A stretch of DNA of 64,000 nucleotides from Escherichia phage PHB12: the sequence record MK524178.1, one strand, 5' to 3'. A model generated the notes under the pieces. The model saw nothing but the letters and a program-made list of their open reading frames with translations, did no database searches and was not told the DNA's origin. A program made the translations under genes and the position numbers. Below are positions 40,727 through 41,182 of this stretch, piece by piece. How positions within the stretch are numbered: position 1 is the stretch's first letter; every line of letters begins with the position of its first letter.

Positions 40727-41182
40727 TTATTTTAGATCTTCGGCCCAATCTAGTTTTAAGGGTTCTTTGTATTCACGGTCGAGAATAACCGGAATAGCTA
40801 CATCACCACTGAATGATAGTTGGCCAACGTTATATGATAACGTTATATGTGGAGTGTAGTCGTCGAAATCATGAGTAGCACCTAAAGCCCGTGCATACTG
40901 ATGACGACATCTAAGATATTCGGAATCAAGAACTAAAACCAGTACAGCGCCGTCATCGGTTTTCCATACCTCAAGGTGTCCTGATTCGGCAACAGAATAA
41001 CTACCACTAGATATAGTATATGGTATGTTTACACGTGAATAACAAATTGTTGAATGAAGCTTTTCGCGTGGTACTGGATTAGGAATTCTTAATTTGCGCT
41101 GGAGGTCTTCCAGCGCATCAAGTGTTAATTCCGAAAATTTAGCTGCGACGTAGAGGCCTTGTGAAAAGTCCTCAAATTTCAT
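40727..41182 (-). CDS. 57B: 2H-phosphoesterase, T4 57B homolog (Acb1 anti-CBASS cyclic-nucleotide phosphodiesterase)
   Basis: 151 aa; two H-x-T/S-x motifs (HSTI, HITL); sequence [16 protein letters not shown]...[21 protein letters not shown]...[15 protein letters not shown] matches T4 57B as recalled; adjacent to 57A. Confidence 0.75.

What the first reader, a model, noticed from the sequence alone, without database searches (positions are those of the whole stretch)
40727..41182. Acb1-type 2H phosphoesterase (57B) present, plus a candidate Acb2-position gene at 26309-26577
The 57B homolog carries both H-x-T/S motifs of the 2H family, which in T4 degrades cyclic oligonucleotide signals. A small ORF at the T4 vs.4 position could be the cyclic-nucleotide sponge, though that call is positional only. 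Together they suggest the phage counters cyclic-nucleotide immune signalling.
Basis: established knowledge. Interest (0 to 1): 0.45.

Follow-up and report, generated by a model that had tools for sequence, protein, structure and literature searches.

The report
Acb1 and Acb2 anti-CBASS genes
This RB69-like T-even phage carries intact copies of the two anti-CBASS genes already characterised in phage T4, an enzyme that cuts cyclic-nucleotide alarm signals and a small protein that soaks them up, and both are ordinary for this phage family.

Summary
Both parts of the finding are real, and both are already known. The window comes from an RB69-like Mosigvirus (Straboviridae).

**Acb1 (57B), 40727-41182, minus strand, 151 aa.**
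- It matches Pfam Acb1 over its full length (E=7e-59).
- It is 86% identical to T4 Acb1 and 99% identical to RB69 gp57B.
- Every residue shown to matter in T4 Acb1 is present. This covers the HxT/HxT tetrad, four stacking aromatic residues and the adenine-reading glutamate.

**Acb2 (Vs.4), 26309-26575, minus strand, 88 aa.**
- The start is 2 nt inside the stated 26577.
- This is a sequence-level match, not only a positional one. It matches the T4 Vs.4 crystal-structure sequence 7UQ2 (E=8e-30) and Pfam Acb2_Tad1_hairpin (E=8e-18).
- It is 64-66% identical to T4 Vs.4 and 98% identical to RB69 Vs.4.
- The dinucleotide-pocket residues (Y9, K24, F82) are conserved.
- Only the central hairpin (residues 38-65) differs from T4. 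That stretch is hypervariable across the whole family.

**Distribution.** tblastn finds homologues in 1,489 (Acb1) and 1,236 (Acb2) of 50,697 phage records.

**Practical points.**
- Public records still label 57B "RNA ligase" and vs.4 "hypothetical protein".
- Whether this Acb2 variant binds cyclic trinucleotides is untested; T4 Acb2 does not.

Interest is low.

The parts
40727..41182 (-). acb1 (gene 57B): 151-aa 2H-family cyclic-oligonucleotide phosphodiesterase. Its ATG shares one base with the stop codon of 57A (TAATG).
   Evidence: The ORF is. It matches Pfam PF23474 Acb1 at E=6.7e-59 over profile positions 1-144 of 144. It matches PDB 7T26 (Erwinia phage FBB1 Acb1) at E=1.3e-59. It is 99% identical to RB69 gp57B and 86% identical to T4 57B. 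The sequence was read.
41048..41056 (-). First catalytic HxT motif of Acb1: H43-S44-T45, equivalent to T4 H44/T46.
   Evidence: The columns are invariant in the window/RB69/T4 alignment. The codons CAT TCA ACA were read. The catalytic role of T4 H44/T46 is reported in PMC9117128.
40841..40849 (-). Second catalytic HxT motif of Acb1: H112-I113-T114, equivalent to T4 H113/T115.
   Evidence: The columns are invariant. The codons CAT ATA ACG were read. The T4 H44A/H113A mutant is catalytically dead (PMC9117128).
26309..26575 (-). acb2 (gene vs.4): 88-aa cyclic-dinucleotide sponge. Its ATG lies 11 nt inside the end of vs.5, with GAGG 9 nt upstream. Its TAA stop shares one base with the ATG of the vs.3-like ORF (TAATG).
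   Evidence: The sequence is. It matches Pfam PF24729 Acb2_Tad1_hairpin at E=8.2e-18 and PDB 7UQ2 T4 Vs.4 at E=7.9e-30 over residues 3-88. It is 98% identical to RB69 Vs.4 and 66% identical to T4 Vs.4. Escherichia phage F2 encodes a 100% identical protein.
26381..26464 (-). Hypervariable central segment of Acb2 (residues 38-65, about a third of the protein). It falls within the central two-helix region of the fold. The two positions equivalent to the PaMx33 cA3-pocket residues R67 and T74 are Q61, inside the segment, and Q68, just outside it.
   Evidence: The 10-sequence alignment shows no conserved column and several indels here, while residues 1-37 and 66-88 are nearly invariant. The DNA alignment with T4 shows the same pattern. 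Residue mapping follows PMC10312549.

Best explanation
The window belongs to an RB69-like Mosigvirus. It carries the two anti-CBASS genes known from phage T4, at the same map positions.

**Acb1 (57B).** This is a metal-independent 2H phosphoesterase. It clamps a cyclic di- or trinucleotide between stacking aromatic residues and reads one adenine with a glutamate. Two HxT motifs then cut the 3'-5' bond 3' of adenosine through a cyclic-phosphate intermediate. This destroys signals such as 3'3'-cGAMP, cUA, cAAA and cAAG before they activate a CBASS effector.

**Acb2 (Vs.4).** This is a small helical-hairpin protein that forms a hexamer and sequesters cyclic dinucleotides without cleaving them. 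The ligands sit in pockets built from the N-terminal segments of two protomers (Tyr stacking, Lys salt bridge) and the C-terminal Phe.

**Combined effect.** The phage has a degrader and a sponge against cyclic-nucleotide immune signalling. The same two proteins would also expose it to Panoptes-type guard systems, which fire when decoy nucleotides are sequestered or degraded.

**Shown here:** gene integrity, homology, synteny, and conservation of every residue with a published role.

**Inferred from T4, FBB1 and PaMx33 experiments:** the activities themselves, the hexamer and the ligand range.
For: **Acb1.**
- It matches the Pfam Acb1 model over its full length at E=6.7e-59, against a cut-off of 27 bits.
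- It matches the solved FBB1 Acb1 sequence at E=1.3e-59.
- It is 86% identical to T4 57B and 99% identical to RB69 57B.
- T4 residues Y12, H44, T46, W74, F107, H113, T115, E141 and W147 (PMC9117128) correspond to window residues Y11, H43, T45, W73, F106, H112, T114, E140 and W146. All are invariant columns.

**Acb2.**
- It matches Pfam Acb2_Tad1_hairpin at E=8.2e-18 and T4 Vs.4 structure 7UQ2 at E=7.9e-30.
- It is 66% identical to T4 Vs.4 and 98% identical to RB69 Vs.4.
- Y9, K24 and F82 are invariant across 10 Straboviridae sequences. Y9 and K24 correspond to T4 Y8 and K23 and to PaMx33 Y11 and K26. F82 stacks on the bound base, and the F82C mutant is a binding-deficient Panoptes escaper.
- In the conserved flanks, differences from T4 are mostly at third codon positions, which indicates purifying selection.

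**Context.**
- Synteny matches RB69 and T4: regB - vs.3 - vs.4 - vs.5 - vs.6, and ipI - 57B - 57A - 1 - 3.
- Both ORFs overlap the adjacent genes in the compact arrangement typical of expressed T-even genes.
- Homologues occur in 1,489 (Acb1) and 1,236 (Acb2) phage records.
Against: - No biochemical or genetic test of these exact proteins, or of the RB69 orthologues, turned up in the searchable literature.
- About a third of Acb2 (residues 38-65) is essentially unrelated to the T4 sequence. Its affinity or ligand range could therefore differ.
- Promoter and terminator scans gave nothing above chance. Expression is inferred from gene arrangement and conservation only.
Confidence: 0.93

Rival explanations
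1. The 57B product is an RNA ligase or a 2',5' RNA ligase (LigT-type) RNA-repair enzyme, as RefSeq and PHROGs label it. It would not be an anti-CBASS nuclease.
For: RefSeq records for T4, RB69 and phage SF name 57B 'RNA ligase'. PHROG 755 carries the same label. Pfam 2_5_RNA_ligase2 gives a weak match at E=0.027, which reflects the shared 2H fold.
Against: The 2_5_RNA_ligase2 match scores 15 bits, below the 27-bit cut-off, whereas Acb1 scores 198 bits. [quoted passage not shown] The 'RNA ligase' label is an older superfamily-level annotation that has been propagated automatically.
Confidence: 0.02
2. The Acb2 homologue has a ligand range different from T4 Acb2, because its central hairpin is replaced. 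It might have gained cyclic-trinucleotide binding. It might bind another signal such as 3'cADPR. It might have changed its affinity for decoy nucleotides, so that the phage escapes type I Panoptes.
For: Residues 38-65 share almost nothing with T4. The T4 positions equivalent to the cA3-pocket residues of PaMx33 Acb2, D61 and T68, are Q61 and Q68 here. Acb2 homologues are known to differ in binding spectra (PMC10312549). Some bind 3'cADPR instead of CBASS signals (PMC12393519).
Against: Neither the Arg nor the Thr that binds the cA3 phosphates in PaMx33 is present, so gain of cA3 binding is not favoured. The 3'cADPR-binding homologue uses extra terminal beta-strands and different N-terminal residues. 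Here the N- and C-termini that form the dinucleotide pocket are almost identical to T4. The central segment varies in every genus sampled, and within Mosigvirus too, which looks like relaxed constraint rather than a specific new function.
Confidence: 0.1
3. One or both genes are decaying remnants that are no longer functional or expressed.
For: Loss does occur in the family. The Salmonella phage Melville vs.4 homologue has an in-frame stop and a W-to-R change in the invariant C-terminal block. No promoter signal above chance was found near either gene.
Against: Both ORFs are intact and full length, and all functional residues are kept. Substitutions relative to T4 in the conserved Acb2 segments are mainly synonymous. 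Both genes are near-identical in many independent Mosigvirus isolates. Both overlap the adjacent genes within long same-strand gene runs.
Confidence: 0.02

Closest known systems
Phage T4 Acb1 (gp57B, NP_049750.1) and Erwinia phage FBB1 Acb1 (PDB 7T26/7T27); Pfam PF23474
   Same: The length is nearly the same (151 aa against 152 aa) and identity to T4 is 86%. The HxT/HxT tetrad, the four stacking aromatic residues, the adenine-reading Glu and the C-terminal lid segment with its Trp are all kept. The map position is the same, immediately downstream of 57A and gene 1 and upstream of an internal-protein gene.
   Different: There are 21 substitutions and one fewer N-terminal residue relative to T4, none at a residue with a published role. 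The neighbouring internal-protein genes differ from both T4 and RB69.
Phage T4 Acb2 (Vs.4, NP_049728.1, PDB 7UQ2); Pfam PF24729 Acb2_Tad1_hairpin
   Same: The length is the same (88 aa). Residues 1-37 and 66-88 are nearly identical, including the Tyr/Lys pair and the Phe82 that contact the cyclic dinucleotide. The position between vs.5 and vs.3 is the same.
   Different: The central segment (residues 38-65) is unrelated in sequence. The two T4 cysteines C47 and C50 are absent. T4 D61 and T68 are both Gln here. The gene overlaps vs.5 by 11 nt, whereas T4 has a 36-nt gap.
Pseudomonas phage PaMx33 Acb2, the founding sponge that binds both di- and trinucleotides
   Same: It belongs to the same Pfam family, and the Tyr and Lys dinucleotide-pocket residues are equivalent.
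   Different: PaMx33 Acb2 is only about 24% identical to the T4-type protein. It binds cA3 and cAAG through R67 and T74 in a second pocket. The window protein has Gln at both equivalent positions and is of the T4 type, which does not bind trinucleotides (PMC10312549).

Membership tests
Acb1 (anti-CBASS 2H phosphoesterase, PF23474) | Full-length match to the family profile above the curated threshold | tested here: met
   The match scores 198.2 bits against a cut-off of 27, at E=6.7e-59, over profile positions 1-144 of 144.
Acb1 (anti-CBASS 2H phosphoesterase, PF23474) | Two HxT/S catalytic motifs (T4 H44/T46 and H113/T115) | tested here: met
   H43-S-T45 and H112-I-T114 fall in invariant alignment columns. 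The codons were read.
Acb1 (anti-CBASS 2H phosphoesterase, PF23474) | Nucleobase-stacking aromatic residues (T4 Y12, W74, F107, W147) and the adenine-specific Glu (E141) | tested here: met
   Window residues Y11, W73, F106, W146 and E140 are all invariant with T4 and RB69. Their roles are described in PMC9117128.
Acb1 (anti-CBASS 2H phosphoesterase, PF23474) | 2H phosphoesterase fold | tested here: met
   This is inferred from sequence. The protein aligns over 140 residues, at E=1.3e-59, with the crystallised FBB1 Acb1 7T26. No separate structure prediction was run.
Acb1 (anti-CBASS 2H phosphoesterase, PF23474) | [quoted passage not shown] | not testable with these tools
   This needs enzyme assays and plaque assays. 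It has been shown only for T4 Acb1 (PMC9117128).
Acb2 (Vs.4 cyclic-nucleotide sponge, PF24729) | Match to the Acb2/Tad1 hairpin profile above threshold, and to a solved Acb2 | tested here: met
   The Pfam match scores 64.8 bits against a cut-off of 27, at E=8.2e-18, over profile positions 1-58 of 58. The match to 7UQ2 Vs.4 is E=7.9e-30 over residues 3-88.
Acb2 (Vs.4 cyclic-nucleotide sponge, PF24729) | Dinucleotide-pocket residues: stacking Tyr and salt-bridging Lys (PaMx33 Y11/K26, T4 Y8/K23), plus the base-stacking T4 F82 | tested here: met
   Y9, K24 and F82 are invariant in 10 Straboviridae sequences. Their roles are described in PMC10312549 and PMC12657218.
Acb2 (Vs.4 cyclic-nucleotide sponge, PF24729) | Second pocket for cyclic trinucleotides (PaMx33 R67/T74). 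This is a feature of some members only, not a defining one. | tested here: not met
   The equivalent positions are Q61 and Q68. T4 Acb2 (D61, T68) also lacks cA3 binding, so this does not exclude membership.
Acb2 (Vs.4 cyclic-nucleotide sponge, PF24729) | Hexameric assembly and non-destructive sequestration of 3'3'-cGAMP | not testable with these tools
   This needs SEC or crystallography, and ITC or HPLC release assays. It has been shown for the T4 and PaMx33 proteins only.
2',5' RNA ligase / LigT (PF13563), the public 'RNA ligase' label for 57B | Profile match above the curated threshold | tested here: not met
   The match scores 15 bits against a cut-off of 27, at E=0.027, and covers only part of the protein.

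The most novel reading that the evidence does not exclude
The RB69-type Acb2 is a functional variant. Its replaced central hairpin (no Cys47/Cys50, Gln at both cA3-pocket-equivalent positions) would change what the hexamer's threefold-axis pocket binds, or how tightly decoy dinucleotides are bound. Mosigviruses would then have a sponge spectrum or a Panoptes sensitivity different from T4. More broadly, the hypervariable centre of Straboviridae Acb2 would be under diversifying selection from host guard systems rather than simply unconstrained.
Probability: 0.1. Interest if true: 0.4.

Novelty: already known. Interest (0 to 1): 0.1.

Why it matters
The finding adds little. It gives correct functional names to two genes that most public records of RB69-like phages still call "RNA ligase" and "hypothetical protein".

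**Predictions for this phage.**
- It should resist CBASS systems that signal with adenine-containing cyclic di- and trinucleotides.
- It should be vulnerable to type I Panoptes, which is triggered by Acb2, and to type II Panoptes, which is triggered by Acb1.

These predictions are useful for host-range reasoning or for choosing phages for therapy. They open no new question.

**Small open point.** The hypervariable third of Acb2 might alter ligand range. A binding panel would answer this cheaply.

Tried and rejected
- **Longer Acb2 reading frame.** I rejected the TTG-started ORF 26309-26743 as the Acb2 gene. It overlaps vs.5 out of frame, and homology starts at the ATG at 26575.
- **Expression signals.** Sigma-70 promoter and intrinsic-terminator scans around both genes gave counts no higher than shuffled sequence for promoters, and only weak terminator-like hairpins. 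No conclusion about expression was drawn.
- **Other countermeasures.** I scanned 20 neighbouring ORFs of unknown function (24219-28002 and 31252-39757) against Pfam for Tad1, Tad2, Apyc1-type metallo-beta-lactamase and similar families. None was found. The only significant hits were DUF7275/DUF7277 and Phage_FRD3. The rest of the window was not scanned.
- **Apparent Tk.4 truncation.** An apparent N-terminal truncation of the Tk.4 macro-domain gene was an artefact of my ATG-only ORF picking. The gene uses the same GTG start as RB69.
- **Direct experiments.** I looked for experiments on RB69 or Mosigvirus Acb1 and Acb2. None of the listed papers combined RB69 with either name, and the sponge-diversity preprint has no supplementary text held.
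- **Structure prediction.** I ran no structure prediction or fold search. Both proteins match crystallised homologues at the sequence level with E-values of 1e-59 and 8e-30 (66% identity for Acb2 to T4 Vs.4). A monomer model would not address the hexamer pockets.

Full report
**What the window is.** Megablast of both regions against 50,697 phage records gives best matches of 96-99% identity to Escherichia and Shigella phages of the genus Mosigvirus, including RB69. Gene order follows RB69 and T4 in both regions. One runs tk - vs - vs.1 - regB - vs.3-like - vs.4 - vs.5 - vs.6(GrcA) - vs.7 - vs.8. The other runs tRNA genes - internal protein genes - 57B - 57A - gene 1 - gene 3 - gene 2 - gene 4. 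The window is therefore a piece of an RB69-like T-even phage genome.

**The observation at 40727-41182.**
- There is an intact minus-strand ORF of 151 codons.
- Its ATG shares one base with the TAA stop of gene 57A (TAATG). RB69 has the same arrangement.
- The product matches the Pfam Acb1 model end to end (PF23474, 198 bits against a 27-bit cut-off, E=6.7e-59).
- It matches the sequence of the crystallised Erwinia phage FBB1 Acb1 (7T26, E=1.3e-59, 140 aligned residues).
- It is 99% identical to RB69 gp57B and 86% identical to T4 gp57B.

Hobbs et al. (PMC9117128) identified T4 57B as Acb1. They named the residues that matter, in T4 numbering:
- the HxT/HxT tetrad H44, T46, H113 and T115;
- the stacking aromatic residues Y12, W74, F107 and W147;
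- E141, which reads adenine N6.

The window protein is one residue shorter at the N-terminus. The equivalents are H43, T45, H112, T114, Y11, W73, F106, W146 and E140. All nine are invariant columns in the three-way alignment. The motifs are HST at 41056-41048 and HIT at 40849-40841.

**The observation at 26309-26577.**
- The real CDS is 26309-26575. The ATG sits at 26575-26573, 11 nt inside the end of vs.5, with GAGG 9 nt upstream. The TAA stop shares a base with the ATG of the next ORF.
- RB69 annotates exactly this arrangement as vs.4.
- The longer TTG-started ORF that the ORF finder lists (26309-26743) is an artefact of the open frame.

- Pfam Acb2_Tad1_hairpin matches over the full profile at E=8.2e-18.
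- The T4 Vs.4 crystal-structure sequence 7UQ2 matches at E=7.9e-30 over residues 3-88.
- Identity is 98% to RB69 Vs.4 and 66% to T4 Vs.4.
- Escherichia phage F2 encodes a 100% identical protein.

**Where the Acb2 differs from T4, and whether that matters.** The 34% divergence is not spread evenly. I aligned ten Straboviridae Acb2 sequences from Mosigvirus, Tequatrovirus, Kanagawavirus, Karamvirus, Marfavirus and others.
- Residues 1-37 and 66-88 are nearly invariant.
- Residues 38-65 have no conserved column and several indels. One is a 13-residue deletion in another Mosigvirus, E. coli O157 typing phage 3.
- At the DNA level, the conserved flanks differ from T4 mostly at third codon positions, which is the signature of purifying selection. 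The centre is unalignable.

The residues that hold the cyclic dinucleotide all lie in the conserved parts and are invariant:
- Y9 and K24 correspond to T4 Y8 and K23 and to PaMx33 Y11 and K26. Their Y11A and K26A mutants lose binding (PMC10312549).
- F82 stacks on the bound base in the T4 structure. The F82C mutant is a binding-deficient escaper (PMC12657218).

The trinucleotide pocket of PaMx33 Acb2 uses R67 and T74. T4 has D61 and T68 at those positions and does not bind cA3 or cAAG, and the D61R mutant did not restore binding. The window protein has Q61 and Q68. The most economical reading is a T4-type dinucleotide sponge whose central hairpin is simply poorly constrained. A changed secondary specificity cannot be excluded without binding assays. 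I give it about 10%.

**Mechanism.**

*Shown here.*
- Both genes are intact and under purifying selection.
- Both are syntenic with RB69 and T4 and overlap their adjacent genes.
- Both keep every residue with a published functional role.

*Inferred from experiments on the T4, FBB1 and PaMx33 proteins.*
- Acb1 binds cyclic di- and trinucleotides that contain at least one adenosine. It cleaves 3' of A through a 2',3'-cyclic phosphate intermediate, without metal. It does not cleave cGG or cA4.
- Acb2 forms a hexamer that sequesters three cyclic dinucleotides without destroying them.
- In T4 lysates Acb1 activity is dominant, and Acb2 binding shows up once acb1 is deleted. The double mutant loses about 10,000-fold fitness on CBASS strains (PMC11722364).
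- The same two activities are what type I Panoptes (Acb2; PMC12657218) and type II Panoptes (Acb1; PMC13577387) detect. Carrying them therefore has a cost.

**Comparison with what is known, and novelty.** Both proteins pass every membership test that sequence can address (see the membership table). tblastn finds Acb1 homologues in 1,489 phage records and Acb2 homologues in 1,236. These are overwhelmingly T4-like phages of enterobacteria, and for Acb1 also of Acinetobacter, Vibrio and Aeromonas. This is an already known pair of genes in a well-sampled genus.

Public labels lag behind, which is of practical use to know:
- RefSeq and PHROGs call 57B "RNA ligase". The relevant Pfam model scores only 15 bits, below its cut-off.
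- vs.4 is labelled "hypothetical protein".

I found no paper that tested the RB69-type proteins directly.

**Other checks.**
- Promoter and terminator scans were uninformative.
- Twenty neighbouring ORFs of unknown function showed no further recognisable anti-signalling family. The rest of the window was not scanned.

**Verdict.** Novelty is nil and interest is low.

Noticed in passing
window 40338-40649 (-), 40013-40276 (-), 28276-28578 (-), 28620-29198 (-), 29262-29522 (-): Five ORFs begin with an MKTYQEFI- or MKTFNEFI-type N-terminus, which from my own knowledge is the T4 internal-protein capsid-targeting sequence. The two next to acb1 match PHROG 'internal head protein' families. The region 40000-40250 has no megablast match in RB69, although other Mosigviruses have it. 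The internal-protein locus beside acb1 is therefore a swap-prone cassette. Such proteins can be anti-restriction factors, for example T4 IPI* against GmrSD (from my own knowledge, not tested here).
   Followed up: partly
window 26094-26309 (-): This is a 71-aa, very acidic ORF whose ATG shares a base with the acb2 stop codon (TAATG). It is a diverged homologue of T4 Vs.3 (40% identity over 65 residues, E=8e-12; PHROG 2037, unknown function). RB69 lists it only as RB69ORF117c. Its function is unknown, and its tight overlap with acb2 may or may not be meaningful.
   Followed up: partly
L011 (Salmonella phage Melville MF957259.1, 56332-56787), positions 88-369: The vs.4/acb2 homologue of this Gelderlandvirus has an in-frame stop after codon 36 and a W-to-R change in the otherwise invariant SMWACR block. 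The record annotates two short fragments. This is either loss of Acb2 in that phage or a sequencing error.
   Followed up: no
RefSeq and GenBank records of T4, RB69 and phage SF (L002, L003, L012); PHROG 755: Gene 57B is labelled 'RNA ligase' in RefSeq and PHROGs, and vs.4 is labelled 'hypothetical protein', in nearly all of the roughly 1,200-1,500 phage records that carry them. Only one listed record (OR062947.1) calls 57B a 'cyclic phosphodiesterase'.
   Followed up: yes
window 33029-33985 (-): This 318-aa ORF matches two domains of unknown function strongly: DUF7277 (E=1e-27) and DUF7275 (E=5e-78). It lies in the variable nudE-to-tRNA region, and its function is unknown.
   Followed up: no
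window 38352-38508 (-): Only two tRNA genes, Arg(tct) and Met(cat), are present in the whole window. T4 has eight at the equivalent locus. RB69 also has a tRNA-Met here.
   Followed up: no
L004 (E. coli O157 typing phage 3, NC_041863.1), positions 91-336: Another Mosigvirus carries an Acb2 with a 13-residue deletion in the central hairpin, while its termini are identical to the others. The hairpin tip therefore tolerates large changes even within one genus.
   Followed up: partly
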